A stretch of 14,218 nucleotides of DNA from a virus. Its lineage: Duplodnaviria; Heunggongvirae; Uroviricota; Caudoviricetes. Made by a program: the position numbers and the translations under genes. Within the stretch, counting starts at the first letter, position 1. The number at the start of each line of letters is the position of its first letter. Location: the IMG/VR virus record IMGVR_UViG_2529292920_000009; one strand, given 5' to 3'. The notes beneath the pieces were generated by a model. It saw nothing but the letters and a program-made list of their open reading frames with translations, was not told the origin of the DNA and made no database searches. This document shows, piece after piece, positions 1 through 14,218 of this stretch.

Positions 1-2
1 GC

Positions 3-1817
3 TTACATGTCTTTGAAGGCATCGCCATTTTTAATGCGCTGAAAACACATGGTGCGTCCATTACCGTTTATGTCGACGGTGTGGCGGCGTCAATGGCGTC
101 GGTCATTGCGATGGTGGGAAACCCGGTCATTATGCCGGAAAACACCTTCATGATGATTCATAAACCATTTGGCTTTACGGGCGGTGATGCGGAGGACATG
201 CGCACCTATGCCGACCTGCTCGATAAGGTTGAGGCGGTTCTGTTACCCGCTTATGCACAGAAAACCGGGAAAACCACCGATGAAATTGCTGCCATGCTGG
301 CGGATGAGACCTGGATGTCCGGTGCCGAATGTCTGGCACATGGATTTGCTGATCAGGTGACGCCAGCCGTTAAGGCAATGGCATGTATTCAGTCAAAACG
401 TACAGAGGAATTTAAAAAGATGCCGGAATCCATTCGAAACATGATTACTCCGCCACGCAACAGTGCTCCATGCGTACAGGATGATGAACCTGCAGCCTCC
501 CGGACGCCAGTGCAGGCAGCAGCACCCGTGGTGGATGAAAACAGTATCCGTGCGCAGGTACTGGCAGAGCAAAAAGCGCGTGTAAACGGTATTAATGATC
601 TGTTTGCCATGTTTGGCGGGCGTTATCAGACGCTGCAGGCTCAGTGTCTTGCCGATCCTGAATGTTCGCTGGAGCAGGCCCGCGAAAAGTTGTTGAACGA
701 GATGGGGCGCGAGTCCACGCCATCCAATAAAAATACCCCGGCTCATATTTATGCCGGTAACGGTAATTTTGTGGGGGACGGGATCCGCCAGGCGCTGATG
801 GCGCGTGCCGGATTTGAAAAAACCGAACGTGATAATGTCTACAACGGGATGACCCTGCGTGAATATGCCCGTATGTCACTGACTGAACGGGGTATTGGGG
901 TTTCCAGTTATAACCCGATGCAGATGGTCGGTGCGGCGTTCACACACAGTACGTCTGACTTCGGTAATATTCTGCTGGATGTTGCGAACAAAGCCATTCT
1001 GCAGGGCTGGGAAGATGCCCCTGAAACCTATGAACAGTGGACGCGGAAAGGTCAGTTGTCTGATTTTAAAATTGCCCATCGTGTGGGTATGGGGGGCTTC
1101 AGTGCTCTGCGTCAGGTGCGTGAAGGGGCGGAATATAAATACGTCACCACCGGAGATAAACAGGCCACTATTGCACTGGCGACCTATGGCGAGCTGTTCA
1201 GTATCACCCGTCAGGCCATTATCAATGATGATCTGAATATGCTGACCGATGTCCCGATGAAACTGGGCCGTGCGGCGAAATCCACTATTGCCGATCTGGT
1301 TTATGCCATTCTGACGTCTAACCCGAAAATCTCCACAGATAATGTAAGTCTGTTCGATAAAGCGAAACATGCAAACGTACTGGAGAGCGCTGCAATGGAC
1401 GTGGCATCGCTGGATAAAGCCCGCCAGTTGATGCGCGTTCAGAAAGAGGGGGAGCGTCATCTGAATATTCGTCCTGCGTTCGTACTGGTACCGACGGCGA
1501 TGGAGTCTGTTGCTAACCAGGTCATTCGCTCCTCAAGTGTCAAGGGGGCTGACATTAACGCCGGTATTATTAACCCGGTGAAAGATTTTGCGACCGTTAT
1601 TGCAGAGCCTCGTCTTGATGATAACAGCCAGACCACCTTCTACCTGGCTGCGTCCAAAGGCTCCGATACGATTGAAGTGGCTTATCTCAACGGTGTGGAT
1701 ACGCCATATATTGATCAGATGGAGGGCTTCAGTGTGGATGGCGTGACAACGAAAGTGCGTATTGACGCCGGTGTCGCGCCAGTTGATCACCGCGGTCTGG
1801 TGAAATGTACGGCGTAA
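3..1817 (+). CDS. Prohead protease (ClpP/S14-like) fused to major capsid protein; 5' end lies upstream of the window
   Basis: Frame 3 is open from the first base of the window to TAA at 1815-1817, so the listed ORF at 81 is an internal start. The N-terminal part carries a ClpP-like motif (GVAASMAS, then MMIHKP); the C-terminal ~400 aa has the size and position of a major capsid protein immediately upstream of head-tail genes. Family assignment is from memory of E. coli prophage protease-capsid fusions. Confidence 0.85.
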   Translation, partial: LHVFEGIAIFNALKTHGASITVYVDGVAASMASVIAMVGNPVIMPENTFMMIHKPFGFTGGDAEDMRTYADLLDKVEAVLLPAYAQKTGKTTDEIAAMLADETWMSGAECLAHGFADQVTPAVKAMACIQSKRTEEFKKMPESIRNMITPPRNSAPCVQDDEPAASRTPVQAAAPVVDENSIRAQVLAEQKARVNGINDLFAMFGGRYQTLQAQCLADPECSLEQAREKLLNEMGRESTPSNKNTPAHIYAGNGNFVGDGIRQALMARAGFEKTERDNVYNGMTLREYARMSLTERGIGVSSYNPMQMVGAAFTHSTSDFGNILLDVANKAILQGWEDAPETYEQWTRKGQLSDFKIAHRVGMGGFSALRQVREGAEYKYVTTGDKQATIALATYGELFSITRQAIINDDLNMLTDVPMKLGRAAKSTIADLVYAILTSNPKISTDNVSLFDKAKHANVLESAAMDVASLDKARQLMRVQKEGERHLNIRPAFVLVPTAMESVANQVIRSSSVKGADINAGIINPVKDFATVIAEPRLDDNSQTTFYLAASKGSDTIEVAYLNGVDTPYIDQMEGFSVDGVTTKVRIDAGVAPVDHRGLVKCTA

Positions 1818-1840
1818 ACGTCGCAGACAACAACTCTGAT

Positions 1841-1860
1841 GGCCCGTAAGGGCTTTTTTT
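1841..1860 (+). terminator. Weak terminator-like hairpin after the capsid gene (GGCCC-GTAA-GGGCT stem with GNRA loop, then T7)
   Basis: Seen directly: 4-5 bp GC stem with GTAA tetraloop at 1841-1854 followed by TTTTTTT at 1854-1860, 24 nt after the capsid stop. The stem is short, so this may only attenuate. Confidence 0.35.
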
Positions 1861-1903
1861 GTACCTGAAATCAGCCCCTGAACGGGGCTGTGCGGAGACA
1901 GTT

Positions 1904-2227
1904 ATGGCAAAGAATTTTGTAGAAGAAGGAAAAACGGTGGCGATTGTTGCCAGTGCAGCCATCAGCAGCGGAGATCTGGTGCAGGTGGGTGATGTTTTTG
2001 CGGTGGCGCTGACCGATATTCCACAGGGTGAAACAGGCGACGGCATGACCGAAGGTGTGTTTATCCTGCCTAAGCTGAAAACGGATGACATGAAAACGGG
2101 TAAGAAGGTTTATCTGAAGTCCGGAAAAGTTCAGCTGACTAACAGCGGCTCTGATCCGCTGGTCGGGGTTGTCTGGGCAGATGCCGGAACCAGTGCAGAA
2201 GAAGTGCCGGTAAAACTCAATGTCTGA
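1904..2227 (+). CDS. Small phage head protein (DUF2190-like; possible head decoration/stabilisation protein)
   Basis: ATG at 1904 is preceded by GGAG at 1894-1897 (6 nt spacing); the ORF-track start at 1859 is an upstream TTG inside the hairpin region. Product MAKNFVEEGKTVAIV... sits directly after the capsid gene. Family assignment is from memory. Confidence 0.7.
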   Translation: MAKNFVEEGKTVAIVASAAISSGDLVQVGDVFAVALTDIPQGETGDGMTEGVFILPKLKTDDMKTGKKVYLKSGKVQLTNSGSDPLVGVVWADAGTSAEEVPVKLNV

Positions 2228-2495
2228 TCCCTTTTCTCGGCTGGCAGCGCGTATGGATGCGATCACGGTCAGAAAGATGGGAAAGACAGCCTCGATTAAT
2301 GATGTCGATATGGCTGTGATCCCGGGCGAAACACTGGCAGAGCTGAATGCTCTGTCCGGACCTGCTGTCTCTCTGGTGGTGTTTTCTTTGGGATACCGCC
2401 CACGGCGCGGGGATCGCGTTGTTTATGACGGACAACATTGGACGGTCACACGGCATGAACGCTTTAACGGTAAGCCAATGATCTTTATTGAGTAA
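2220..2495 (+). CDS. Putative head-tail joining/adaptor protein (FII-like position)
   Basis: ATG at 2220 overlaps the upstream stop (ATGTCTGA), indicating translational coupling; 91 aa, located between head genes and the Z homologue. Function is inferred from position and size. Confidence 0.6.
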   Translation: MSDPFSRLAARMDAITVRKMGKTASINDVDMAVIPGETLAELNALSGPAVSLVVFSLGYRPRRGDRVVYDGQHWTVTRHERFNGKPMIFIE

Positions 2496-2506
2496 AGAGG
2501 TGTGGG

Positions 2507-3085
2507 ATGAAGGGGCTTGAGAATGCCATCCGCAATCTGAACAGCCTTGATACCCGTATGGTGCCACAGGCCAGCGCATGGGCGATAAACCGTGTGGCAC
2601 AGAAAGCGGTCTCGGTTGCCACCCGGCAGGTTGCCGGGAATACCGTTGCGGGAGATAACCAGGTGAAAGGGATACCCCTGAAACTGGTACGTCAGCGTGT
2701 CCGGGTGTTTAAAGCCAGTCCGTCAGGAAAAATGACGGCCAGGATCCGCGTCAACCGGGGCAATCTGCCCGCCATTAAGCTGGGGACAGCCCGGGTCAGA
2801 CTGGCCCGGCGTGGTGGAAAACTGCAGTACCGTGGCAGTGTGCTGAAGGTGGGTAAATATCTTTTCCGGGATGCGTTTATTCAGCAACTGGCGAATGGTC
2901 GCTGGCATGTGATGCGGCGTATTGATGGCAAAAATCGTTACCCCATTGATGTGGTGAAAATCCCGTTGTCCGGACCGCTGACACAGGCATTTGAAGATGC
3001 CCGCGACCGCATCATTGCTGCGGAAATGCCGAAACAGTTGGGTTATGCACTGAAACAACAACTGAGGTTATGGCTGACCCGATGA
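2507..3085 (+). CDS. Z: Minor tail protein Z (tail completion), lambda gpZ-like
   Basis: ATG at 2507 with AAGAGG at 2495-2500. 192 aa, the same length I recall for lambda gpZ, with a recognisable gpZ-like C-terminal region (NGRWHVMRRIDGKNRYPIDVVKIP...GYAL). Confidence 0.85.
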   Translation: MKGLENAIRNLNSLDTRMVPQASAWAINRVAQKAVSVATRQVAGNTVAGDNQVKGIPLKLVRQRVRVFKASPSGKMTARIRVNRGNLPAIKLGTARVRLARRGGKLQYRGSVLKVGKYLFRDAFIQQLANGRWHVMRRIDGKNRYPIDVVKIPLSGPLTQAFEDARDRIIAAEMPKQLGYALKQQLRLWLTR

Positions 3086-3483
3086 ACCGACATACACAAA
3101 TCCGCCAGGTCGTACTGGCACGCCTTCGGGAACAGTGTGGAGACAGCGCCACGTTTTTTGACGGGCTTCCGGCATTTGTTGATGCGCAGGAACTGCCTGC
3201 CGTGTCGGTGTGGCTGAGTGATGCTCAGTACACCGGAAAAATGACGGATGAAGATGACTGGCAGGCTGTTCTGCATATTGCTGTCTTCATCCGGGCACAA
3301 GCACCGGATTCAGAGCTGGATATGTGGATGGAGAGCACCATTTTCCCGGCCCTGAATGATGTACCGGCACTTTCCGGACTCATCGACACCCTGATCCCAC
3401 TCGGTTTTAACTATCAACGTGATAATGAGATGGCCACCTGGGCGATGGCGGAAATCACGTACCAGATCACGTACACGAATTAA
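3070..3483 (+). CDS. U: Tail terminator protein U, lambda gpU-like
   Basis: Product contains ATFFDG, PAVSVWL and a C-terminal ITYxITY region resembling lambda gpU as I recall it. Start is ambiguous: ATG 3070 (GAGG only 2 nt upstream) or ATG 3082 (aligns better with the lambda N-terminus MKHTELR). Overlaps the Z stop at 3083-3085. Confidence 0.8.
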   Translation: MADPMNRHTQIRQVVLARLREQCGDSATFFDGLPAFVDAQELPAVSVWLSDAQYTGKMTDEDDWQAVLHIAVFIRAQAPDSELDMWMESTIFPALNDVPALSGLIDTLIPLGFNYQRDNEMATWAMAEITYQITYTN

Positions 3484-3493
3484 GGAGGTGGTA

Positions 3494-4237
3494 ATGACCA
3501 CACCAAATCCACTGGCAAAAACGAAAGGTGCGGGAACGACGTTCTGGATGTATACCGGCAACGGCGACGCATTTGCGAACCCTTTGTCGGACACTGACTG
3601 GCTGCGTCTTGCGATGGTGAAGGATCTGCAACCTGGCGAAATGACCGCTGATGCAGAAGATGACACTTATCTCGATGATGAAGATGCAGACTGGAAAACG
3701 ACAACCCAGGGGCAGAAATCCGTTGGTGATACTTCGGCGACGCTGGCCTGGCGTCCGGGTGACAGCGGGCAGAAAAAACTGGTTCAGTTGTTCGACTCCG
3801 GTGAAGTCTGCGCGTTTCGTATCAAATATCCCAACGGCACTGTTGATGTTTTCCGTGGCTGGCTGAGCTCACTGGGTAAAACCATTGCCTCAAAAGACGT
3901 GATGACCCGCACAGTGAAAATCAGCGGTGTGGGGCGTCCGTATCTGGCAGAGGAGGGCACTGAAACTGTGGGCGTTACCGGGCTGACGGTGGCACCGGCA
4001 TCTGCCAGTGTAAAAGTGGGAGCAACCACCACGCTGACCTTTACAGTAAAACCTGACGGAGCCAGTGACAAAGCGATCAGTGTGCATTCGACAGATCCAC
4101 AGACTGCCACGGTGACCCTGAACGGGCTTGTGGCCACGGTGAAAGGCGTGAAGCAGGGCAGTGTCAGCATTGTGGGCATGACTTCTGACGGCGATTTTGT
4201 GGCAGTGGCTGCGGTGGCTGTCAGCGCCGCAGGTTAA
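3494..4237 (+). CDS. V: Major tail protein V with C-terminal Ig-like (Big_2-type) domain, lambda gpV-like
   Basis: Strong SD AAGGAGGT at 3482-3489 and ATG at 3494; the ORF-track start at 3419 is upstream and overlaps U. N-terminus MTTPNPLAKTKGAGTTFWMY...NPLSD...DLQPGEMTA...YLDDEDADW matches lambda gpV from memory; the C-terminal ~90 aa is an Ig-like segment. Confidence 0.9.
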   Translation: MTTPNPLAKTKGAGTTFWMYTGNGDAFANPLSDTDWLRLAMVKDLQPGEMTADAEDDTYLDDEDADWKTTTQGQKSVGDTSATLAWRPGDSGQKKLVQLFDSGEVCAFRIKYPNGTVDVFRGWLSSLGKTIASKDVMTRTVKISGVGRPYLAEEGTETVGVTGLTVAPASASVKVGATTTLTFTVKPDGASDKAISVHSTDPQTATVTLNGLVATVKGVKQGSVSIVGMTSDGDFVAVAAVAVSAAG

Positions 4238-4257
4238 CAGGACGATACTCATCATTT

Positions 4258-4282
4258 GCCCCGGTTATCCGGGGCTTTTTTT
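4258..4282 (+). terminator. Rho-independent terminator or attenuator between V and G
   Basis: Seen directly: perfect 7-bp GC stem GCCCCGG (4258-4264), loop TTAT, CCGGGGC (4269-4275), then TTTTTTT (4276-4282), 20 nt after the V stop. Confidence 0.55.
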
Positions 4283-4294
4283 CAGGTGGAGAAC

Positions 4295-4684
4295 ATGATG
4301 TTTCTGAAACAGGGCACGTTTAATTATGAAAAGCAGTCCGTGGTGCTCAGTGAGCTGTCCGGGCTGCAGAGAATTGAATATCTGGCGTTTGTTCAGCAGC
4401 GAACGGCAAAGTTTGATGCCGAAGAGGGAGAACTGCCGGAGGCTGAACGACAGATTGCTTTTCTGCGGATGGGGATGGATATCAATGCCTGGCTGGTTTC
4501 CCGCTCACAGTGGAATGCGGATCAGTCTAAGGATGTAGAGACGCTTTGCGCATCCGTTATTACAACATGGTCGTATGATGCCCTGGGTGCGGGGGCGGAG
4601 ATGGTTCTGTCGCTGAGCGGTATGGGGACCATTGATAATGCCGGGGATGATGAGCATGAGGCGCTGACGCCGGAAAAGTCCTGA
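4295..4684 (+). CDS. G: Tail assembly chaperone G, lambda gpG-like
   Basis: Tandem ATG at 4295/4298 with GGTGGAG at 4285-4291; MFLK...VLSELSGLQRIEYLAF resembles the lambda gpG N-terminus (MFLK...TLSELSALQRIEHLA, from memory). Stop TGA at 4682-4684. Confidence 0.85.
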   Translation: MMFLKQGTFNYEKQSVVLSELSGLQRIEYLAFVQQRTAKFDAEEGELPEAERQIAFLRMGMDINAWLVSRSQWNADQSKDVETLCASVITTWSYDALGAGAEMVLSLSGMGTIDNAGDDEHEALTPEKS

Positions 4685-5022
4685 CGCGGGAAATGCAGTT
4701 TGTCATGCGGCTTGCCCGGGAGTTCCGGCGGGCAGACTGGCGGCGGATGCTGTCGGAAATGTCGGCCACTGAGCTTGGTGAGTGGGGCGATTATTTCCGG
4801 ATGCAGAGCTTCAGTGATGTGTGGATGGATGCGCAGTTTGCCTCGCTGAAGGCATTGATCGTGAGAATGGTGTCCGGCAGCAGTGATGCTGCGGTGGCTG
4901 ATTTCAGCCTTTTACCGGAAGAGAACGGGATACCGGAGCGAACGGACGAAGAACTGATGCATCTTGGGGAAGGTATTTCCGGAGGTGTGCGTTATGGACC
5001 AGATAGCCAACCTGGTCATTGA
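4672..5022 (+). CDS. T: T portion of the tail assembly chaperone G-T fusion, expected to be made by -1 programmed frameshift from G
   Basis: The -1 frame relative to G is open from 4660 (upstream TGA at 4657-4659) to TGA at 5020-5022 and overlaps the last codons of G (GAA AAG TCC TGA). This is the conserved lambdoid G/G-T arrangement; the exact slip point is inferred. Confidence 0.7.
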   Translation, partial: GKVLTREMQFVMRLAREFRRADWRRMLSEMSATELGEWGDYFRMQSFSDVWMDAQFASLKALIVRMVSGSSDAAVADFSLLPEENGIPERTDEELMHLGEGISGGVRYGPDSQPGH

Positions 5023-5647
5023 TTTGGGGATTGATGCGGCAGAGTTTAAAAATGAAATCCCCCGTATCAAAAACCTTCTGAATGGTGCAGCCAGCGATGC
5101 AGAACGGTCTTCTGCCCGTATGCAGCGTTTTATGGAGCGTCAGACTCAGGCCGCCCGGCAGACAACGCAGGCGGCTTCTTCGGCTGCAACAGCCGCATCC
5201 GTCCATGCGCAGACGGTGGAGAAGAACGCACAGGCTCATGAACGCATGGCCCGCGAGGTGGAGAAAACCCGCCAGCGCATGGAGGCGCTGAGCCAGAAAA
5301 TGCGCGAGGAACAGGCGCAGGCCATGGCTCTGGCGGAGGCTCAGGATAAAGCGGCTGCTGCGTTTTATCGTCAGATTGACAGTGTGAAACAGGCCAGTGC
5401 GGGGCTGCAGGAATTACAGCGTATTCAGCAGCAGATCCGACAGGCCAGAAACAGTGGCGGGATTGGTCAGCAGGATTATCTGGCGCTGATTTCTGAGGTT
5501 ACGGCGAAAACCCGTGTTCTTACACAGGCTGAGGAAGAGGGTACCCGACAGAAAGTGGCGTTTATCCGTCAGCTTAAAGAGCAGGCAACCCGCCAGAATC
5601 TTTCATCTTCTGAGTTGCTTCGTGCTAAGGCTGCCCAGCTGGGGTAA
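4994..5647 (+). CDS. H: Tape-measure protein H, N-terminal fragment (ends at in-frame TAA)
   Basis: ATG at 4994 with GGAGG at 4980-4984; overlaps the end of T by 29 nt. I preferred this start over the upstream ATG at 4964 because of the SD and the lambda-like N-terminus. Confidence 0.75.
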   Translation: MDQIANLVIDLGIDAAEFKNEIPRIKNLLNGAASDAERSSARMQRFMERQTQAARQTTQAASSAATAASVHAQTVEKNAQAHERMAREVEKTRQRMEALSQKMREEQAQAMALAEAQDKAAAAFYRQIDSVKQASAGLQELQRIQQQIRQARNSGGIGQQDYLALISEVTAKTRVLTQAEEEGTRQKVAFIRQLKEQATRQNLSSSELLRAKAAQLG

Positions 5648-5650
5648 GCA

Positions 5651-6673
5651 GTGCTGCAGAAGTGTATATCCGCAAAAATGGAGCAGGCAGGAAAAGCCAC
5701 GCATTCGCTGGGTCTGAAAAGTGCAGCGGCCCGCCAGGAGATAGGCGTTCTGATAGGTGAACTGGCCCGCGGCAATTTAGGGGCGCTGAGGGGATCCGGG
5801 ATAACGCTGGCTAACCGTGCCGGATGGATAGACACACTGATGTCACCGAAAGGCATGATGCTGGGCGGGGTTATTGGCGGTATTGCCGCAGCTGTCTATG
5901 GTCTGGGTAAAGCCTGGTATGACGGTCAGAAGGAGGGGGAAGAATTTAACCGCCAGCTGTCGCTGACGGGGCATTATGCCGGAGTCACTGCCGGGCAGCT
6001 GTGGACGCTCAGTCGTGCTATTTCCGGGAATGGTATCACGCAACATGCTGCAGCCGGTGCGCTGGCTCAGGTGGTGGGGAGTGGTGCATTTCGTGGAAAC
6101 GATATCGGTATGGTGGCGAGAGCTGCCGCACAGATGGAGCGATCGGTTGGCCAGTCGGTCAGCGATACCATAAGTCAGTTTAAGCGGCTGAAGGATGATC
6201 CTGTAAATGCCGCGAAGGCTCTGGACAATGAGCTGCATTTTCTTACTGCCACTCAGCTTGAGCAGATACGCGTCCTTGGGGAACAGGGGCGGTCCAGTGA
6301 TGCGGCACGGATAGCCATGTCTGCACTGGCAGAGGAAACCGGTCGGCGTACTGCGGATATTGATAATAACCTCAATGCGCTGGGCAGTACGCTGAAGTAT
6401 CTGTCTGATTTATGGAGTCGTTTCTGGGATGCGGCCATGAATATTGGTCGTGAAGACTCGCTGGATGAACAGATTTCCGCTTTACAGGAGAAAGTGTCGC
6501 GGGCGAAAAGACTCCCCTGGACGGCATCATCCTCTCAGGTTGAGTACGATCAGCAGCGTCTTAACGAGCTTCAGGAAAAAAACGCCAGAAGGATTTGCAG
6601 GATGCAAAAGAGCAGGCAGAGCGGAATTATCAGGAGCAACAGAAACGCCGTAATGCTGAAAATGCTGCACTGA
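5651..6673 (+). CDS. H: Tape-measure protein H, middle fragment (same frame as the N-terminal fragment)
   Basis: Reading frame resumes one codon after the TAA (GTG at 5651); it contains a hydrophobic Gly-rich segment (GMMLGGVIGGIAAAVYGLG) typical of tape-measure proteins; the frame is lost at the A7 tract near 6576-6582. Confidence 0.7.
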   Translation: MLQKCISAKMEQAGKATHSLGLKSAAARQEIGVLIGELARGNLGALRGSGITLANRAGWIDTLMSPKGMMLGGVIGGIAAAVYGLGKAWYDGQKEGEEFNRQLSLTGHYAGVTAGQLWTLSRAISGNGITQHAAAGALAQVVGSGAFRGNDIGMVARAAAQMERSVGQSVSDTISQFKRLKDDPVNAAKALDNELHFLTATQLEQIRVLGEQGRSSDAARIAMSALAEETGRRTADIDNNLNALGSTLKYLSDLWSRFWDAAMNIGREDSLDEQISALQEKVSRAKRLPWTASSSQVEYDQQRLNELQEKNARRICRMQKSRQSGIIRSNRNAVMLKMLH

Positions 6674-8049
6674 ACCGGATGAATGAAACGGAAGCAGCAC
6701 GACATCAGCGTGAAATTGCGCGTATTAATGCCATGCAGTACGCCGATCAGACTGTCAGGGATGCGGCGATACAACGTGAAAATGAACGTTACGAGAAAGC
6801 CCTGGCATCCGGTAAGAAAAAAACACGCGAAACCCGTAATGATGAGGCCACCCGGTTATTGCTGCAGTACAGTCAGCAACAGGCACAGGTGGAAGGACAG
6901 ATTGCTGCTGCCAGACAGTCAGCAGGCATTGCCACGGAAAGGATGACAGAAGCGCATAAACAGCTTCTGGCTCTGCAGCAGCGCATCAGCGACCTGGACG
7001 GGAAAAAACTGACGGCAGATGAAAAGAGTGTGCTGGCCCGTAAAGATGAACTGATTCTGGCACTGACGCTGCTGGATGTAAAACAGCAGGAGCTTCAGAA
7101 ACAGACGGCACTCAACGAGCTGAAGAAAAAAACAATTCAGCTGACCAGTCAACTGGCTGAAGAAGAGCGTGCTCAGCGTCAACAACATAATCTGGATATC
7201 GCCACGGTGGGTATGGGTGATCAGCAGCGGCAGCGATATCAGGTACAACTGAGTCTTCGTCAGAAATACCAGCAACAGCTGGAGCAGTTGAGGCGGGATA
7301 GTGAGCAGAAAGGGACATATAACACGGATGACTACAGAAAGGCCGAGCAGGCGCTGACGGAGAGCCTGAACCGACAACTGAATGAGAATCGCCGTTACTG
7401 GCAACAGCTTGAAATTGCTCAGGGTAACTGGAAAAACGGAGTCCTGCGTGCACTCCAGAATGTCACTGAGAATGCGGATAACACAGCCTGGACAGTGGAA
7501 CAGTTGTTCACGTCTGCGTTCAGTAGCATGAGTGACTGGCTGGCGACATTCTGTACTACAGGCAAACTCAATTTCAAATCTTTTACTTCTTCTGTGCTGT
7601 CAGATATGTCCAGAATCATGGCTCAGATAGCTTTAATGAAAGCGGTAAAAGGCATTGCTTCCGCGCTGCCTTTTGATTTTGTAGCCAATGCTGATGGCGG
7701 TGTTTATCAGTCGGCTGATTTGAGTCGCTACAGTGGCACGGTGGTTAACCGTCCGACGTTTTTTGCTTTTGCAAAAGGCGCGGGTGTGATGGGGGAAGCG
7801 GGACCTGAAGCCATTCTGCCATTGCGTCGTGGTGCTGACGGTAAGCTGGGGGGTGTGGCGGATATTGGGGGTTCAGGTATGGCGATGTTTTCCCCGCAGT
7901 ACAACATCGAGATCAATAACGATGGCACGAACGGGCAGATAGGTCCGGCTGCCCTGAAGGCGGTTTATGACCTCGGGAAAAAAGCGGCAGCGGACTTTAT
8001 GCAACAGCAGGCCCGTGATGGTGGTCGGTTAAGTGGAGCATATCGGTAA
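6595..8049 (+). CDS. H: Tape-measure protein H, C-terminal fragment (-1 frame)
   Basis: This frame is open from 6565; the ORF-track start at 6595 is a TTG. Gln/Glu/Arg-rich coiled-coil-like sequence ending in the conserved gpH C-terminus; stop TAA at 8047-8049 overlaps the M start (TAATG). Confidence 0.75.
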   Translation: MQDAKEQAERNYQEQQKRRNAENAALNRMNETEAARHQREIARINAMQYADQTVRDAAIQRENERYEKALASGKKKTRETRNDEATRLLLQYSQQQAQVEGQIAAARQSAGIATERMTEAHKQLLALQQRISDLDGKKLTADEKSVLARKDELILALTLLDVKQQELQKQTALNELKKKTIQLTSQLAEEERAQRQQHNLDIATVGMGDQQRQRYQVQLSLRQKYQQQLEQLRRDSEQKGTYNTDDYRKAEQALTESLNRQLNENRRYWQQLEIAQGNWKNGVLRALQNVTENADNTAWTVEQLFTSAFSSMSDWLATFCTTGKLNFKSFTSSVLSDMSRIMAQIALMKAVKGIASALPFDFVANADGGVYQSADLSRYSGTVVNRPTFFAFAKGAGVMGEAGPEAILPLRRGADGKLGGVADIGGSGMAMFSPQYNIEINNDGTNGQIGPAALKAVYDLGKKAAADFMQQQARDGGRLSGAYR

Positions 8050-8378
8050 TGGAGACGTTTCACTGGAAAGTGCGCCCGGATATGAATGTGGTATCAGAGC
8101 CGAAAGTGGTGACAGTGAAGCTGGGCGATGGTTATGAACAGCGTCGTGCGGCGGGACTGAATAACCAGTTGTCGACTTACAGCGTGACGATACGTGTTCG
8201 TAAATGTGAACACCCATCTTTAAAAGCCTTTCTGGAACGGCACGGTGGCGTCCGCGCATTTCAGTGGACGCCACCTTATGACTGGAAACCGATTAGGGTG
8301 GTTTGTCGTAAATGGTCGGCAAGCGTGGGGGCGCTGTGGGTAACCATAACGGCAGATTTTGAACAGGTCGTGGCATAG
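8049..8378 (+). CDS. M: Minor tail protein M, lambda gpM-like
   Basis: 109 aa; METFHWKVRPDM...GDGYEQR...LNNQLSTYSV...WTPPYDWK...FEQVV matches lambda gpM from memory; start overlaps the H stop. Confidence 0.9.
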   Translation: METFHWKVRPDMNVVSEPKVVTVKLGDGYEQRRAAGLNNQLSTYSVTIRVRKCEHPSLKAFLERHGGVRAFQWTPPYDWKPIRVVCRKWSASVGALWVTITADFEQVVA

Positions 8379-8387
8379 GAGGCTCTG

Positions 8388-9086
8388 ATGCAGGATATTC
8401 CACAGGAAACACATCATGAGACGACACGCCTCACTCAGTCAGCCCAGGTGGTGCTCTGGGAAATCGATCTGACAGAGGTCGGTGGTGAACGTTATTTTTT
8501 CTGTAATGAGCAGAACGAAAAAGGTGAGCCGGTTACCTGGCAGGGGCGGCAGTATCAGGCATACCCCATTCAGGGGACAGGATTTGAACTGAACGGCAAG
8601 GGCAGTGCTGCCCGTCCGACACTGACGGTTTCTAACCTGCACGGCATGGTCACGGGGATGGCGGAAGACCTGCAGAGTCTGGTCGGCGGAACGGTGGTCA
8701 GGCGTAAGGTTTACGCCCGTTTTCTGGATGCGGTGAACTTCGTCAACGGAAACAGCGACGCCGATCCGGAGCAGGAGGTGATCAGCCGCTGGCGCATCGA
8801 GCAGTGCAGCGAACTGAGTGCGGTCAGTGCCTCCTTTGTACTGTCCACGCCGACGGAAACGGATGGTGCTGTTTTTCCGGGGCGTATCATGCTGGCCAAC
8901 ACCTGCACCTGGACCTATCGCGGTGATGAGTGTGGTTATCACGGTCCGGCTGTCGCGGATGAATATGACCAGCCGACGTCCGATATCACGAAGGATAAAT
9001 GCAGCAAATGCCTGAGCGGCTGTAAGTTTCGCAATAACGTCGGCAACTTTGGCGGCTTCCTTTCCATTAACAAACTTTCGCAGTAA
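8388..9086 (+). CDS. L: Minor tail protein L, lambda gpL-like
   Basis: 232 aa; ATG at 8388 with GGAG at 8377-8380. Sequence (VVLWEIDLTEVGGERYFFCNEQNEKGEPVTWQGRQYQ...CSKCLSGCKFRNNVGNFGGF) is almost identical to lambda gpL as I recall it, including the C-terminal Cys cluster. Confidence 0.95.
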   Translation: MQDIPQETHHETTRLTQSAQVVLWEIDLTEVGGERYFFCNEQNEKGEPVTWQGRQYQAYPIQGTGFELNGKGSAARPTLTVSNLHGMVTGMAEDLQSLVGGTVVRRKVYARFLDAVNFVNGNSDADPEQEVISRWRIEQCSELSAVSASFVLSTPTETDGAVFPGRIMLANTCTWTYRGDECGYHGPAVADEYDQPTSDITKDKCSKCLSGCKFRNNVGNFGGFLSINKLSQ

Positions 9087-9090
9087 TCCC

Positions 9091-9834
9091 ATGACACAGA
9101 CAGAATCAGAGATTCTGGCGCACGCCCGGCGATGTGCGCCAGCGGAGTCGTGCGGCTTCGTGGTAAGCACGCCGGAGGGGGAAAGATATTTCCCCTGCGT
9201 GAATATCTCCGGTGAGCCGGAGGCGTATTTCCGTATGTCGCCGGAAGACTGGCTGCAGGCAGAAATGCAGGGTGAGGTGGTGGCGCTGGTCCACAGCCAC
9301 CCCGCTGGTCTGCCCTGGCTGAGTGAGGCCGACCGGCGGCTGCAGGTGCAGAGTGATTTGCCGTGGTGGCTGGTCTGCCGGGGGACAATTCATAAGTTCC
9401 GCTGTGTGCCGCATCTCACCGGGCGGCGCTTTGAGCACGGGGTGACGGACTGTTACACGCTGTTCCGGGATGCTTATCATCTGGCGGGGATTGAGATGCC
9501 GGATTTTCATCGCGAGGATGACTGGTGGCGTCACGGCCAGAATCTCTATCTGGATAATCTGGAGGCAACGGGGCTGTATCAGGTGCCGTTGTCAGCGGCG
9601 CAGCCGGGCGATGTGCTGCTGTGCTGTTTTGGTTCATCGGTGCCGAATCATGCCGCCATTTACTGCGGCGACGGCGAGCTGCTGCACCATATTCCTGAAC
9701 AACTGAGTAAACGAGAGAGGTACACCGACAAATGGCAGCGACGCACACACTCCCTCTGGCGTCACCGGGCATGGCACGCATCTGCCTTTACGGGGATTTA
9801 CAACGATTTGGCCGCCGCATCGACCTTCGTGTAA
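9091..9834 (+). CDS. K: Tail tip assembly protein K, lambda gpK-like, with JAMM/MPN and NlpC/P60-type motifs
   Basis: ATG at 9091, 5 nt after the L stop; N-terminus MTQTESEILAHARRCAP. An exact HxHx7Sx2D JAMM motif (HSHPAGLPWLSEAD) is encoded at 9292-9333, followed by a Cys (GVTDCYTLF) and His (PNHAAIYCGDG) pair characteristic of an NlpC/P60-type domain. Confidence 0.9.
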   Translation: MTQTESEILAHARRCAPAESCGFVVSTPEGERYFPCVNISGEPEAYFRMSPEDWLQAEMQGEVVALVHSHPAGLPWLSEADRRLQVQSDLPWWLVCRGTIHKFRCVPHLTGRRFEHGVTDCYTLFRDAYHLAGIEMPDFHREDDWWRHGQNLYLDNLEATGLYQVPLSAAQPGDVLLCCFGSSVPNHAAIYCGDGELLHHIPEQLSKRERYTDKWQRRTHSLWRHRAWHASAFTGIYNDLAAASTFV

Positions 9835-10379
9835 AAACGGGGGCTGAAGCCATCCGGGCGTTGTCCACACAGCTCCCGGCGTTTCGTCAGAAACTGAATG
9901 ACGGCTGGTATCAGGTGCGCATTGCCGGGCGTGATGCAGGTGAAACCGAATTATCTGCCCGTCTTAATGAGCCGCTGGCAAATGGTGCCGTGATCCACAT
10001 CGTGCCGCATCTGGCGGGAGCTAAAAGTGGCGGTGTGTTTCAGGTGGTGCTGGGGGCGGCGCTGATTGCGGTGGCATGGTGGAACCCTGTGGGCTGGCTG
10101 GGTGCCGCGGCTGTATCGGGCATGTATGCGGCAGGGGCCAGTATGATCCTGGGTGGTGTGGCCCAGATGCTGGCACCGAAAGCCCGGACGCCCACAGCGA
10201 CCAGCACGGATAACGGTAAGCAGAACACCTATTTCTCATCACTGGATAACATGGTTGCCCAGGGCAATGTTCTGCCTGTTCTGTACGGTGAAATGCGCGT
10301 GGGGTCTCGTGTGGTTTCTCAGGAGATCAGCACGGCAGATGAAGGGGACGGTGGTCAGGTTGTGGTGATTGGCCGCTGA
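9732..10379 (+). CDS. I: Tail tip assembly protein I, lambda gpI-like
   Basis: MAATHTLPLASPGMARICLYGDLQRFGRRIDLRV... and the C-terminus NVLPVLYGEMRVGSRVVSQEISTADEGDGG resemble lambda gpI from memory; the start overlaps the 3' end of K by 103 nt, as K and I do in lambda. Confidence 0.9.
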   Translation: MAATHTLPLASPGMARICLYGDLQRFGRRIDLRVKTGAEAIRALSTQLPAFRQKLNDGWYQVRIAGRDAGETELSARLNEPLANGAVIHIVPHLAGAKSGGVFQVVLGAALIAVAWWNPVGWLGAAAVSGMYAAGASMILGGVAQMLAPKARTPTATSTDNGKQNTYFSSLDNMVAQGNVLPVLYGEMRVGSRVVSQEISTADEGDGGQVVVIGR

Positions 10380-10397
10380 TGCAAAATATTTCATGTG

Positions 10398-10425
10398 AAA
10401 CCGCCTCCGGGCGGTTTTGTCGTTT
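10398..10425 (+). promoter_or_regulatory. Hairpin between I and J (8-bp stem AAACCGCC/GGCGGTTT, loop TCCG) with a T-rich tail; possible attenuator or RNA processing site
   Basis: Seen directly at 10398-10417, followed by TGTCGTTT; lies 19 nt after the I stop and just before the J Shine-Dalgarno (GGAG at 10428-10431). Confidence 0.35.
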
Positions 10426-10439
10426 ATGGAGCATAACGA

Positions 10440-12407
10440 ATGGGCAAAGGAAGCAGTAAGGGGCATACCCCGCGCGAAGCGAAGGACAACCTGAAGTCCA
10501 CGCAACTGCTGAGTGTGATTGATGCCATCAGCGAAGGGCCGATTGAAGGTCCGGTGGATGGATTAAAAAGCGTGCTGCTGAACAGTACGCCGGTGCTGGA
10601 CAGTGAAGGTAATACCAACATCTCCGGTGTCACGGTGGTGTTCCGGGCCGGTGAGCAGGAGCAGACACCGCCGGAGGGATTTGAATCCTCCGGCTCTGAG
10701 ACGGTGCTGGGTACGGAAGTGAAATACGACACGCCGATCACCCGCACCATCACGTCGGCAAACATCGATCGTCTGCGCTTTACTTTCGGTGTGCAGGCAC
10801 TGGTGGAAACCACCTCTAAGGGGGACCGGAATCCGTCGGAAGTCCGCCTGCTGGTTCAGATACAGCGTAACGGTGGCTGGGTGACGGAAAAAGACATCAC
10901 CATTAAAGGCAAAACCACCTCACAGTATCTGGCATCGGTGGTGGTGGGTAACCTGCCGCCGCGCCCGTTCAATATCCGGATGCGCAGGATGACGCCGGAC
11001 AGCACCACAGACCAGCTGCAGAACAAAACGCTCTGGTCGTCATACACCGAAATCATCGATGTGAAACAGTGCTACCCGAACACGGCACTGGTCGGCGTAC
11101 AGGTGGATTCGGAGCAGTTCGGCAGCCAGCAGGTGAGCCGTAATTATCATCTGCGCGGGCGTATTCTGCAGGTGCCGTCGAACTATAACCCGCAGACGCG
11201 GCAATACAGCGGTATCTGGGACGGAACGTTTAAGCCAGCATACAGCAATAACATGGCCTGGTGTCTGTGGGATATGCTGACCCATCCACGCTACGGCATG
11301 GGGAAACGTCTTGGTGCGGCGGATGTGGACAAATGGGCGCTGTATGTCATCGGCCAGTACTGCGACCAGTCAGTGCCGGACGGCTTTGGCGGCACGGAGC
11401 CGCGCATCACCTGTAATGCGTACCTGACCACACAGCGCAAGGCGTGGGATGTGCTCAGTGATTTCTGCTCGGCGATGCGCTGTATGCCGGTATGGAACGG
11501 GCAGACGCTGACGTTCGTGCAGGACCGACCGTCGGATAAGGTGTGGACCTATAACCGCAGTAATGTGGTGATGCCGGATGATGGCGCGCCGTTCCGCTAC
11601 AGCTTCAGCGCCCTGAAAGACCGCCATAATGCCGTTGAGGTGAACTGGATTGACCCGAACAACGGCTGGGAGACGGCGACAGAGCTTGTGGAGGATACGC
11701 AGGCCATTGCCCGTTACGGTCGTAACGTCACGAAGATGGATGCTTTTGGCTGTACCAGCCGGGGGCAGGCACACCGCGCCGGGCTGTGGCTGATTAAAAC
11801 AGAACTGCTGGAAACGCAGACCGTGGACTTCAGCGTGGGCGCAGAAGGGCTTCGCCATGTGCCGGGCGATGTCATTGAAATCTGTGATGATGACTATGCC
11901 GGTATCAGCATCGGCGGGCGCGTGCTGGCGGTAAACAGCCAGACCCGGACGCTGACGCTCGACCGTGAAATCACGCTGCCATCCTCCGGTACCACGCTGA
12001 TAAGCCAGGTTGACGGAAGTGGCAATCCGGTCAGCGTGGAGGTTCAGTCCGTCACCGACGGCGTGAAGGTAAAAGTGAGCCGTGTTCCTGACGGTGTTGC
12101 CGGATACAGCGTATGGGGGCTGAAGCTGCCGACGCTGCGCCAGCGACTGTTCCGCTGCGTGAGTATCCGTGAGAACGACGACGGCACGTATGCCATCACC
12201 GCCGTGCAGCATGTGCCGGAAAAAGAGGCCATCGTGGATAACGGGGCGCACTTTGACGGCGAACAGAGTGGCACGGTGAACGGTGTCACGCCGCCAGCAG
12301 TGCAGCACCTGACCGCAGAAGTCACCGCAGACAGCGGGGAATACCAGGTGCTGGCGCGCTGGGACACGCCGAAGGTGGTGAAGGGGGGAGCTTTATGCTT
12401 CGCCTGA
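10440..12407 (+). CDS. J: Host-specificity protein J, N-terminal fragment
   Basis: ATG at 10440 with GGAG at 10428-10431; [54 protein letters not shown]... matches lambda J; the frame ends 7 codons after the G6 tract. Confidence 0.85.
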
Positions 12408-13810
12408 CCGTGGCAGCGGATGACGGCAGTGAGCGGCTGGTCAGCACGGCCCGGACGACGGAAACCACATACCGCTTCAGGCAGCTGGCGTTGGGGCGTT
12501 ACACGCTGACAGTCCGGGCGGTAAATGCCCGGGGACAGCAGGGCGATCCGGCGTCGGTATCGTTCCGGATTGCCGCACCGGCAGCGCCGTCACAGATTGA
12601 GCTGACGCCGGGCTATTTTCAGATCACCGCCACGCCGCATCTTGCGGTTTATGATCCGACGGTACAGTTTGAGTTCTGGTTTTCGGAAAAGCGGATTACC
12701 GATATCAGGCAGGTTGAAACCAGCGCGCGCTATCTTGGCACGGGGATGTACTGGATAGCCGCCAGTATCAATATCAAACCGGGCCATGATTATTACTTTT
12801 ATATCCGCAGTGTGAACACCGTTGGCAAATCGGCATTCGTGGAGGCTGTCGGTCAGGCGAGCGATGATGCGGAAGGTTACCTGGATTTTTTCAAAGGCCA
12901 GATAACCGAATCCCATCTCGGCAAGGAGCTGCTGGAAAAAGTCGAGCTGACGGAGGATAACGCCAGCAAACTGGAGGAGTTTTCGAAAGAGTGGCAGGAC
13001 GCTAACGATAAGTGGAATGCCATGTGGGGCGTCAAAATTGAGCAGACCAAAGACGGCAAACATTATGTCGCGGGTATTGGCCTCAGCATGGAGGACACGG
13101 AAGAAGGCAAGCTGAGCCAGTTTCTGGTTGCCGCTAACCGTATCGCGTTTATTGACCCGGCAAACGGGAATGAAACGCCGATGTTTGTGGCGCAGGGCAA
13201 TCAGATATTTATGAACGACGTGTTCCTGAAGCGCCTGACGGCCCCGACCATTACCAGTGGTGGAAATCCACCGGCATTTTCCCTGACATCAGACGGAAAG
13301 CTGACCGCTAAAAATGCGGATATCAGTGGTAGAGTGAATGCGAACGCCGGGACGCTCAACAATGTCACGGTAAATGAAAACTGTACGATTAAGGGCATGC
13401 TGGAGGCGACTCAGGTCAGAGGTGACTTCGTTAAAGCTGTATCCAAATCATTTCCGAAACAGGCTGGTACGTGGGGTAACACGGAAACACCAAACGGGAC
13501 GGTTACAGTCACCATCAGCGATGATCATAACTTTGACCGTCAAATCATTATTCCGCCCATTATCTTTAACGGAATAGCGTATAGCTATCCGGGAAGTGGT
13601 AATAACCCGGGAGGTACAAGTTACACGGGTTATGGTTTCGAAGTTCGCAAAAACGGTGTATTAATCGCATCCAGAGAAACTAAAGGGGCCATTCCCGGTA
13701 GTTACAGTGCGGTTATTGATATGCCGAGTGGCAGGGGAGCGTCACTCTGGAGTTTAAGGTTTTCCATAAAGGCAATCAGTGGGCAGGTAATATCACCGAC
13801 TGTACGGTGA
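12395..13810 (+). CDS. J: Host-specificity protein J, C-terminal fragment (-1 frame relative to the N-terminal fragment)
   Basis: Continues the J sequence ([28 protein letters not shown]..., fibronectin-III-like region); the last ~150 aa look diverged from lambda and are more AT-rich; the frame ends at TGA 13808-13810 after the G4 tract. Confidence 0.8.
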
Positions 13811-13872
13811 TTGTGACCAAAAAAGCCGCTTCCGGCATCAGTATTCGTTGAAATTGTTATAACCCATATAAG

Positions 13873-13899
13873 GGCACCAAAAATGGTGCCTATTTTATT
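13873..13899 (+). terminator. Rho-independent terminator downstream of J
   Basis: Seen directly: 7-bp stem GGCACCA (13873-13879), loop AAAA, TGGTGCC (13884-13890), then TATTTTATT (13891-13899). Confidence 0.6.
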
Positions 13900-14013
13900 G
13901 CAGAAAAGCGAGAGGTAATTATGCGTAAAGGTAACCGGCTCATTTAAACCGTCTGGTCTGTTTCCTCCGGCTCTACAAAAATAATGTCCATCATTTTTAA
14001 TGGACACTATCGT

Positions 14014-14218
14014 ATGAAACACCGGACCTGGATCACTGAAGCTTTACGTCTTCACTTTGAAGAACATTTACCCCGGGTTGTGGCCGGGCGTCGCCTGGGT
14101 GTACCAAAATCAACAGTTTGTAGTATGTTCGTGCGCTTTCGGAGAGCTGGCCTTTCGTGGCCTTTGCCCGCAGGCATGTCGGAGCAGGAACTTGATGCCT
14201 GCCTTTACGGACAATTTT
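14014..14218 (+). CDS. HTH-domain ORF, 3' end beyond the window; possibly the N-terminus of an IS transposase (family not determined)
   Basis: ATG at 14014 opens a frame that runs to the window edge (68 codons). It encodes a helix-turn-helix-like segment (GRRLGVPKSTVCSMFVRFRRAGL) of the kind seen at transposase N-termini. There is no clear SD, and a 7-bp inverted repeat lies immediately upstream (13985-14006). Confidence 0.4.
   Translation, partial: MKHRTWITEALRLHFEEHLPRVVAGRRLGVPKSTVCSMFVRFRRAGLSWPLPAGMSEQELDACLYGQF

What the first reader, a model, noticed from the sequence alone, without database searches (positions are those of the whole stretch)
6572..6600. Tape-measure frame break falls exactly on a canonical slippery heptamer A_AAA_AAC
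In the frame of H fragment 2 the sequence reads CAG GAA AAA AAC GCC; the heptamer A AAA AAC (6577-6583) has the X_XXY_YYZ form of -1 ribosomal slip sites. A -1 shift here enters the frame of the C-terminal fragment (next codon CGC at 6583-6585), which continues 489 codons to the conserved gpH C-terminus. The zero frame terminates 30 codons later. Most likely this is a mutational or sequencing 1-nt loss in an A8 tract, but an A-run like this can also support ribosomal or transcriptional slippage, so some full-length tape measure might still be made from a formally frameshifted gene.
Basis: partly seen in the sequence, partly recalled or inferred. Interest (0 to 1): 0.55.

Follow-up and report, generated by a model that had tools for sequence, protein, structure and literature searches.

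The report
One-base loss in tape-measure A-run
The "slippery site" is what remains after one A was lost from a conserved run of eight A's in a prophage tail tape-measure gene in a draft E. coli contig; it is most likely a sequencing error or an ordinary inactivating mutation, not a recoding signal.

Summary
CAG GAA AAA AAC GCC sits at 6572-6586, the A7 run at 6576-6582, the zero-frame stop at 6671-6673, and the -1 frame is open from 6583 to 8049.

The window is a complete 14,218-bp draft contig of E. coli DEC1E (AIEZ01000007.1). It carries a cdtI/mEp460-like lambdoid head-tail module. Every intact relative inspected has A8 at this site and a single 1018-aa tape-measure ORF. No complete E. coli genome holds the A7 version. 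An A7 run left by an A8 to A7 loss must read A_AAA_AAC in this phase, so the coincidence with a slippery heptamer follows from the deletion itself.

The same gene has two more DEC1E-only homopolymer changes (G5 to G4, A4 to A5). They create an in-frame TAA at 5645-5647, upstream of the site. Gene J is also broken twice, once at a lesion shared with the finished E2348/69 genome. A shift at A7 therefore could not give full-length H or a working tail.

No downstream RNA structure is present. A_AAA_AAC is a low-efficiency motif in E. coli, and A7 is below the roughly 9-nt threshold for transcriptional slippage.

Verdict: an ordinary lesion, most likely an assembly homopolymer error, otherwise prophage decay.

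The parts
6576..6582 (+). A7 homopolymer. Intact relatives have A8 here, so this is a 1-nt contraction that breaks the tape-measure (H) reading frame.
   Evidence: The intact A8 would be longer than any homopolymer now in the contig, where the maximum is 7.
6577..6583 (+). Heptamer A_AAA_AAC in the zero-frame phase. It is an automatic by-product of the A8 to A7 loss.
   Evidence: The intact gene reads GAA AAA AAA CGC.
4994..5647 (+). H fragment 1 (217 aa, EHU30974.1), ending at an in-frame TAA at 5645-5647.
5641..5644 (+). G4 run where all relatives have G5. The 1-nt loss shifts the frame into the TAA at 5645-5647.
5674..5678 (+). A5 run where all relatives have A4. The 1-nt gain returns the reading to the original frame 34 nt after the G4 loss.
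5651..6673 (+). H fragment 2 ORF (gene called at 5678-6673, 331 aa, EHU30975.1, Pfam TMP_2). It is in the same frame as fragment 1 and ends at TGA 6671-6673 after 29 out-of-frame codons.
6583..8049 (+). C-terminal H frame (gene called at 6679-8049, 456 aa, EHU30976.1; Pfam TMP_4 and Tape_meas_lam_C). It is open from the TAA at 6562-6564.
12383..12388 (+). J frame break. GGGGGTGAG in an intact relative is GGGGGGAG here (loss of T). The lesion is identical in four E2348/69 assemblies, so it is a genuine inherited lesion and shows that the prophage is defective.
13738..13738 (+). Second J frame break. GGGGAAGC in cdtI is GGGGAGC here (AA to A). It is found only in this contig.

Best explanation
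The site is a non-programmed loss of one A from a conserved A8 run (GAA AAA AAA CGC, coding E-K-K-R) in the tape-measure gene of a cdtI/mEp460-like lambdoid prophage. The window is a 2012 draft contig of E. coli DEC1E. The most likely cause is a homopolymer-length miscall in the draft assembly: the longest homopolymer in the contig was under-called by one base. Three further DEC1E-only one-base changes in short runs (two in H, one in J) would have the same cause. The slippery heptamer is what any A8 to A7 contraction leaves in this phase. It has no decoding function. Shown here: the A8 to A7 difference, its uniqueness, the other lesions, the lack of a stimulator, and the lack of conservation. 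Inferred: that the cause is sequencing error rather than a real mutation.
For: 1. All close relatives have A8 and one ORF: cdtI and E2348/69, 6 of 7 IMG/VR contigs and 3 of 3 metagenome contigs. No exact match to the A7 71-mer exists in 1,799 complete E. coli records (1,939 places). The 25 best hits have a one-base gap against the A7 query. All 40 evenly sampled hits are gap-free against an A8 query.
2. The window is a whole draft contig, AIEZ01000007.1 of E. coli DEC1E, from the DECA collection published in 2012. The sequencing centre I recall as having produced the DECA genomes described 454 Titanium plus Celera for its other E. coli drafts that year.
3. Over window positions 7-8840 the contig differs from finished E2348/69 by only 10 substitutions but by three DEC1E-only one-base indels. 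All three lie in homopolymers: G5 to G4, A4 to A5 and A8 to A7. A fourth, AA to A in J, is also unique. With an indel-to-substitution ratio of about 1:10 (my own figure for E. coli), about 0.5 indels would be expected on this lineage.
4. All five H and J fragment proteins occur on this one contig only.
5. The only other A7 copy found (L011, an IMG/VR contig) also has a second A-run contraction in H. L009 has a G-run deletion. Four other IMG/VR contigs have no indels in H. The sister draft DEC2B has H broken at a different place.
6. The intact A8 would be the longest homopolymer in the contig.
Against: No reads are available, so the error is inferred and not seen. I could not confirm the sequencing platform of the DEC genomes, because the paper is not held. 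The prophage is genuinely defective: the J lesion is shared with E2348/69, and E2348/69 has its own real H frameshift. H is therefore free to decay, and real indels also favour homopolymers. All three indels in the 8.8-kb near-identical segment fall in H, which has a probability of about 0.04 if placement were uniform. H does hold 3 of the 5 runs of 7 or more and 7 of the 17 runs of 6 or more.
Confidence: 0.7

Rival explanations
1. The A7 is a genuine mutation. Replication slippage removed one A from the A8 run in a prophage that was already dead, so the tape-measure gene is a decaying pseudogene and the heptamer has no function.
For: The J frameshift at 12383-12388 is identical in four E2348/69 assemblies, so the prophage was defective before the strains diverged. 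E2348/69 has its own H frameshift at a different, non-homopolymer position, annotated as frameshifted. Long mononucleotide runs are mutational hotspots (established knowledge). An A7 at the same site occurs in a second assembly, L011.
Against: Four lineage-specific indels against about 5 lineage-specific substitutions is far above the usual indel-to-substitution ratio. A7 is absent from all complete E. coli records checked, although many of those copies sit in prophages. The second A7 assembly carries another A-run contraction, which is the pattern of a homopolymer-prone platform.
Confidence: 0.27
2. The A7 is a working recoding site. A fraction of ribosomes shift -1 on A_AAA_AAC, or RNA polymerase adds an A, so that a tape-measure protein with the conserved C-terminus is still made from the broken gene (compensatory frameshifting, a 'pseudo-pseudogene').
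For: The heptamer has the X_XXY_YYZ form in the right phase, and the -1 frame is open from 6565. A_AAA_AAC is the proven low-level -1 site of IS1 in E. coli. Compensatory shifting on indels in mononucleotide runs is documented elsewhere.
Against: Translation from the H start stops at TAA 5645-5647, so no full-length H can result. There is no downstream structure: z = +0.17 for 104 nt and z = -0.85 for 57 nt, with 38 of 200 shuffles folding as well. The only SD-like element (AGGA, 6573-6576) abuts the heptamer. From my own knowledge of dnaX, an SD-like stimulator of -1 shifting lies about 10 nt upstream. AAC to AAA re-pairing is poorly tolerated by bacterial ribosomes. Motifs without a stimulator give only 2-10 times a background of about 0.055%. 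A7 is below the roughly 9-nt run length at which bacterial transcriptional slippage matters. The arrangement is not conserved, because relatives have A8 and a single ORF. J is broken twice, so no functional tail could be assembled anyway.
Confidence: 0.02

Closest known systems
Homopolymer-length miscalls in draft assemblies (pyrosequencing-type errors), which produce false frameshifts
   Same: One-base length changes confined to mononucleotide runs. There are several per gene. They are unique to one draft contig and absent from finished genomes. The longest run in the contig is affected.
   Different: The platform and the reads for DEC1E could not be checked here. One lesion in the contig (J, 12383-12388) is demonstrably real.
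Frameshifted tape-measure and J pseudogenes of defective lambdoid prophages, for example the orthologous prophage of E. coli E2348/69
   Same: The same prophage backbone (99.9% identical over 8.8 kb), the same J lesion, and an H gene annotated as frameshifted.
   Different: The E2348/69 H lesion is a single A loss at a non-homopolymer position (window equivalent 7105). That genome has A8, G5 and A4 at the three DEC1E sites.
IS1 insA-insB' -1 frameshift on A_AAA_AAC
   Same: An identical heptamer in E. coli with no established stimulator and low efficiency.
   Different: In IS1 the two-ORF layout and the motif are conserved and the fusion product is functional. Here relatives have one ORF and A8, and the upstream part of the gene ends at a stop codon.
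Lambda G/GT programmed -1 frameshift (G_GGA_AAG), immediately upstream of the tape-measure gene
   Same: The same gene neighbourhood. The window has its own G-T overlap with a shift-prone G_GAA_AAG at 4672-4678. The role of G-T frameshifting in tail assembly is reviewed in PMC5009743.
   Different: The G-T shift is conserved across long-tailed phages and makes a required product. The A7 in H is a one-off lesion.
Compensatory decoding of indels in mononucleotide runs: HSV thymidine kinase G-run, apoB A8, and the bacterial 9A/9T 'pseudo-pseudogenes' of Baranov et al. 2005
   Same: A frameshift indel inside a homopolymer that could in principle be bypassed at a low level.
   Different: The bacterial cases involve runs of 9 or more (8 in a few organisms). 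Here the run is 7, a second lesion with a stop codon lies upstream, and nothing suggests selection for the product.

Membership tests
Programmed -1 ribosomal frameshift site | X_XXY_YYZ heptamer in the zero-frame phase inside an overlap of the zero and -1 ORFs | tested here: met
   A_AAA_AAC lies at 6577-6583, and the overlap is 6565-6670. The phase is forced by the A8 to A7 loss, and 17 such in-frame heptamers occur in the window.
Programmed -1 ribosomal frameshift site | A stimulatory element: a downstream stem-loop or pseudoknot about 5-9 nt from the heptamer, or an SD-like sequence about 10 nt upstream | tested here: not met
   The fold of 6577-6680 gives z = +0.17. The fold of 6584-6640 gives z = -0.85, and 38 of 200 shuffles fold as well. 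The only SD-like AGGA (6573-6576) touches the heptamer. Pseudoknots were not modelled.
Programmed -1 ribosomal frameshift site | Conservation of the motif and of the two-ORF layout in homologues | tested here: not met
   Relatives have A8 and a single 1018-aa ORF. No complete E. coli genome carries the A7 71-mer.
Programmed -1 ribosomal frameshift site | Measured frameshifting above background that yields a functional trans-frame product | not testable with these tools
   This needs a reporter assay or proteomics. The literature rates A_AAA_AAC as low efficiency in E. coli.
Transcriptional slippage site (bacterial) | An A or T run of about 9 or more (8 in some organisms), with its length conserved among homologues that have a split ORF | tested here: not met
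   The run is 7. The threshold comes from Baranov 2005. Homologues have A8 with an intact ORF.
Lambda-type tail tape-measure gene (gpH-like) | Tape-measure domains and position in the Z-U-V-G-T-H-M-L-K-I-J tail module | tested here: met
   The fragments carry Pfam TMP_2, TMP_4 and Tape_meas_lam_C, and the flanking genes carry Phage_TAC_2, Phage_tail_T, Phage_min_tail, Phage_tail_L and Lambda_tail_I. The sequence is 99.9% identical to the annotated tape-measure genes of cdtI and mEp460.
Frameshift lesion (assembly error or pseudogene) | A one-base length difference from intact orthologues with no other local change | tested here: met
   The only difference from cdtI and E2348/69 in the 120 nt around the site, apart from one C/T substitution at 6532, is the missing A.
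Frameshift lesion (assembly error or pseudogene) | Further independent disruptions in the same gene or element | tested here: met
   G5 to G4 with TAA at 5645-5647, A4 to A5 at 5674-5678, and J breaks at 12383-12388 and 13738.
Frameshift lesion (assembly error or pseudogene) | Read-level evidence that distinguishes a miscall from a real mutation | not testable with these tools
   No reads or quality values are available. The platform is only inferred.

The most novel reading that the evidence does not exclude
If the A7 is real, low-level -1 shifting on A_AAA_AAC (as in IS1), or occasional insertion of an A by RNA polymerase, could let a trace of protein that starts inside fragment 2 (for example at ATG 5678) continue into the conserved tape-measure C-terminus. 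That would make this a leaky 'pseudo-pseudogene' in a defective prophage. The product would lack the first 228 or so residues of H and would have no intact J to work with.
Probability: 0.02. Interest if true: 0.2.

Novelty: not a real feature. Interest (0 to 1): 0.05.

Why it matters
It matters mainly as a caution. A frame break that falls exactly on a slippery heptamer is the expected signature of any one-base change in a long homopolymer, so it is not evidence of recoding. In draft assemblies such breaks are often base-calling errors. If a scan flags such sites, three checks settle most cases quickly: the homopolymer length in close relatives, other lesions in the same gene, and the provenance of the contig. 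If the recoding reading were true, it would add only a low-level, functionless example to an already described class (compensatory shifting at indels in mononucleotide runs).

Tried and rejected
- A scan of species-representative genomes for the site, allowing A6 to A10, found nothing, because the E. coli representative lacks this prophage.
- The DEC collection paper could not be read by PMC id or by DOI. A search for 'DEC1E' gave nothing useful. The sequencing platform therefore rests on practice at the centre I recall as having produced these genomes and on that recollection.
I compared only its protein sequence. It shows a break at HFL|T, a different position from the DEC1E breaks.
- Loci from the E. 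coli collection are not exported to the Python sandbox. I rebuilt the E2348/69 locus from an alignment file.
- I considered counting A7 against A8 with very short (about 45-nt) BLAST queries. I dropped the idea because the low-complexity filter would mask the A run and leave no 28-nt seed. I used 71/72-nt queries with evenly spaced row sampling instead. This gives 0 exact A7 matches, 65 inspected rows that are all A8 (two samples of the same 1,799 records, which overlap), and no complete census.
- I considered that the contig might be a collapsed repeat. E2348/69 has only one copy of this H segment, so nothing supports that, and it cannot be tested without reads.
- I considered that the conserved A8 in intact H genes might itself be a functional shift site. 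The homologues are too similar (95-100% identity) for conservation to carry information, so I did not pursue it.

Full report
**1. Observation**

The sequence is as described. In the frame of ORF 5651..6673, positions 6572-6586 read CAG GAA AAA AAC GCC. The A run is 6576-6582 (seven A's between G6575 and C6583), and A_AAA_AAC occupies 6577-6583. The zero frame reads ...LNELQEKNARRICRMQKSRQSGIIRSNRNAVMLKMLH* and stops at TGA 6671-6673, after 29 sense codons. The -1 frame is open from the TAA at 6562-6564. From CGC at 6583 it runs 488 sense codons to TAA at 8047-8049 and reads KKRQKDLQDAKEQAERNYQEQQ....

**2. What the window is**

The window is an entire draft contig: AIEZ01000007.1, 14,218 bp, assembly GCA_000249135.2. 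The deposited proteins EHU30974.1, EHU30975.1 and EHU30976.1 are the three tape-measure fragments of Escherichia coli DEC1E. AIEZ belongs to the DECA (diarrheagenic E. coli) collection of drafts published in 2012.

The contig carries a lambdoid head-tail module: protease/capsid fusion, decoration protein, Z, U, V, G, T, H, M, L, K, I, J and the start of lom. Pfam assignments match this order. It is 98-99% identical to phage cdtI, mEp460 and many E. coli prophages.

**3. What the site is**

Phage cdtI and the finished genome of EPEC E2348/69 have GG AAAAAAAA CGCC here, which is A8. This lies in an uninterrupted 1018-aa tape-measure ORF that reads ...LNELQEKKRQKDLQ....

- Six of seven IMG/VR contigs with this segment have A8.
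- Three of three metagenome contigs have A8.
- All 17 full-length phage hits span at least one base more than the query.
- Among 5,426 complete E. coli genomes, 1,799 records (1,939 places) hold the segment. None matches the A7 71-mer exactly.
- The 25 best hits have a one-base gap against the A7 query.
- All 40 rows sampled evenly down the ranking are gap-free against an A8 query.

The window has therefore lost one A from a conserved A8. Because the intact codons are GAA AAA AAA CGC, the loss must yield GAA AAA AAC. The canonical heptamer is a direct consequence of the lesion and is not an independent signal. In-frame X_XXY_YYZ heptamers are also frequent: 17 occur in this window's genes.

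**4. Other lesions**

Against cdtI, the H gene differs by 4 substitutions and 3 one-base indels, all in homopolymers:

- G5 to G4 at 5641-5644.
- A4 to A5 at 5674-5678.
- A8 to A7 at 6576-6582.

The first two lie 34 nt apart and cancel in frame, but the shifted stretch begins with TAA at 5645-5647. Fragments 1 and 2 are therefore in the same frame and are separated by a stop codon. No complete E. coli genome has the G4/A5 version.

J is split at 12383-12388, where GGGGGTGAG has become GGGGGGAG, and again at 13738, where AA has become A. The first J lesion is identical in four E2348/69 assemblies, whose J is annotated as frameshifted. It is therefore real and inherited, and the prophage is defective. 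The second J lesion is unique to DEC1E. E2348/69 has its own H frameshift, the loss of an A at window-equivalent 7105 outside any homopolymer. It keeps G5, A4 and A8.

**5. Artefact or real mutation**

Over positions 7-8840 the window and E2348/69 differ by only 10 substitutions, yet the window has three private indels there and a fourth in J. With the usual ratio of roughly one indel per ten substitutions in E. coli (my own knowledge), about 0.5 would be expected on this lineage. Several further points favour homopolymer miscalls in the draft:

- All four private changes are run-length changes.
- The intact A8 would be longer than any run now in the contig.
- Every H and J fragment protein is seen on this single contig only.
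- The one other A7 copy (L011, an IMG/VR contig) has a second A-run contraction in H. L009 has a G-run deletion. Four other IMG/VR contigs have none.
- The sister draft DEC2B has H broken elsewhere.
- The sequencing centre I recall as having produced the DECA genomes described 454 Titanium plus Celera for its other 2012 E. coli drafts.

I put this reading at about 0.7. The alternative is real replication slippage in a prophage that is already dead. It is plausible because this element does decay: the J lesion is shared, and E2348/69 has its own H lesion. I put it at about 0.27. Only reads or re-sequencing can decide between the two.

**6. Recoding**

This reading fails for six reasons.

- Ribosomes that start at the H initiation codon stop at TAA 5645-5647, so a shift at 6577-6583 cannot give full-length H.
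- No stimulatory structure follows the heptamer. For 6577-6680 the MFE is -18.9 kcal/mol against a shuffle mean of -19.4 (z = +0.17). For 6584-6640, z = -0.85, and 38 of 200 shuffles fold as well. The SD-like AGGA abuts the heptamer. From my own knowledge of dnaX, an SD-like stimulator of -1 shifting lies about 10 nt upstream.
- Sharma et al. 2014 (PMC4066793) tested all 64 heptamers in E. coli. Efficient motifs need cognate A-site re-pairing. The AAC to AAA shift is poorly tolerated, and A_AAA_AAC is 'of low efficiency'. Motifs without a stimulator reach only 2-10 times a background of about 0.055%. IS1 does use this heptamer, at a low level.
- Bacterial transcriptional slippage becomes relevant at runs of about nine A or T (Baranov et al. 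2005, PMC1088944). This run has seven.
- The split-ORF layout is not conserved (section 3).
- J is broken twice, so a tail could not be built in any case.

**7. Comparison with known systems**

By form, the site resembles the IS1 A_AAA_AAC shift site and the compensatory-frameshift cases reviewed by Atkins et al. 2016 (PMC5009743). It meets only the heptamer criterion. It fails the stimulator and conservation criteria, so it should not be filed as a recoding site. The gene itself is a member of the lambda-type tape-measure family, by domains and by synteny. The real programmed shift of this module is the G-T overlap upstream, at 4672-4678.

**8. Verdict**

The recoding suggestion is not supported. 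The lesion is an ordinary one, most likely an assembly artefact, in a defective prophage of a draft genome. Interest is about 0.05.

Noticed in passing
window 4660-4693 (site 4672-4678): This is the G-T tail-chaperone overlap. G ends ...CCG GAA AAG TCC TGA at 4684. The T frame (-1) is open from 4660. The only shift-prone motif in the overlap is G_GAA_AAG, one base different from lambda's G_GGA_AAG (recalled from memory), so the P-site re-pairing GAA to GGA is non-canonical. It is presumably the real programmed -1 frameshift of this module.
   Followed up: partly
window 12383-12388: A J frameshift (loss of T, GGGGGTGAG to GGGGGGAG) creates an in-frame G_GGG_GGA heptamer at the break. It is identical in four E2348/69 assemblies, and about 4,000 other E. 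coli records have the extra base. It is a genuine inherited lesion marking this prophage as defective in the EPEC1 lineage.
   Followed up: yes
window 5641-5678: A pair of opposite one-base homopolymer changes lies 34 nt apart (G5 to G4, A4 to A5). They cancel in frame but expose a TAA at 5645-5647. Neither is found in any complete E. coli genome.
   Followed up: yes
L013 (E2348/69), about 7522, equivalent to window 7105: The finished E2348/69 genome has its own tape-measure frameshift (CAGACGG to CAGCGG), at a different position from any DEC1E lesion. PGAP annotates it as frameshifted.
   Followed up: yes
L011 (IMGVR_UViG_2529293041_000016) and L009 (IMGVR_UViG_2529293038_000015): L011 has the same A8 to A7 change plus an A7 to A6 change at window-equivalent 7126-7132. 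L009 has a G deletion near window-equivalent 6291. These look like homopolymer-type errors in other draft genomes. The identity of these IMG genomes was not determined.
   Followed up: partly
window 8840-13930: Identity to E2348/69 drops from about 99.9% (positions 7-8840) to a mosaic of divergent blocks in the end of L, K, I and J. The J C-terminal region aligns only in part. This is typical recombination among lambdoid tail modules.
   Followed up: no
window 6817-6823 and 7126-7132: Two further A7 runs lie in the Lys-rich coiled-coil part of H. H holds 3 of the 5 runs of 7 or more in the contig, so the gene is unusually exposed to homopolymer miscalls and slippage mutations.
   Followed up: partly
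window 1-6 and 13931-14218: The contig ends inside the capsid-fusion gene on the left and just after J, in the start of lom, on the right. These are places where lambdoid prophages of one genome typically share sequence, so the contig breaks probably reflect repeats in the assembly.
   Followed up: no
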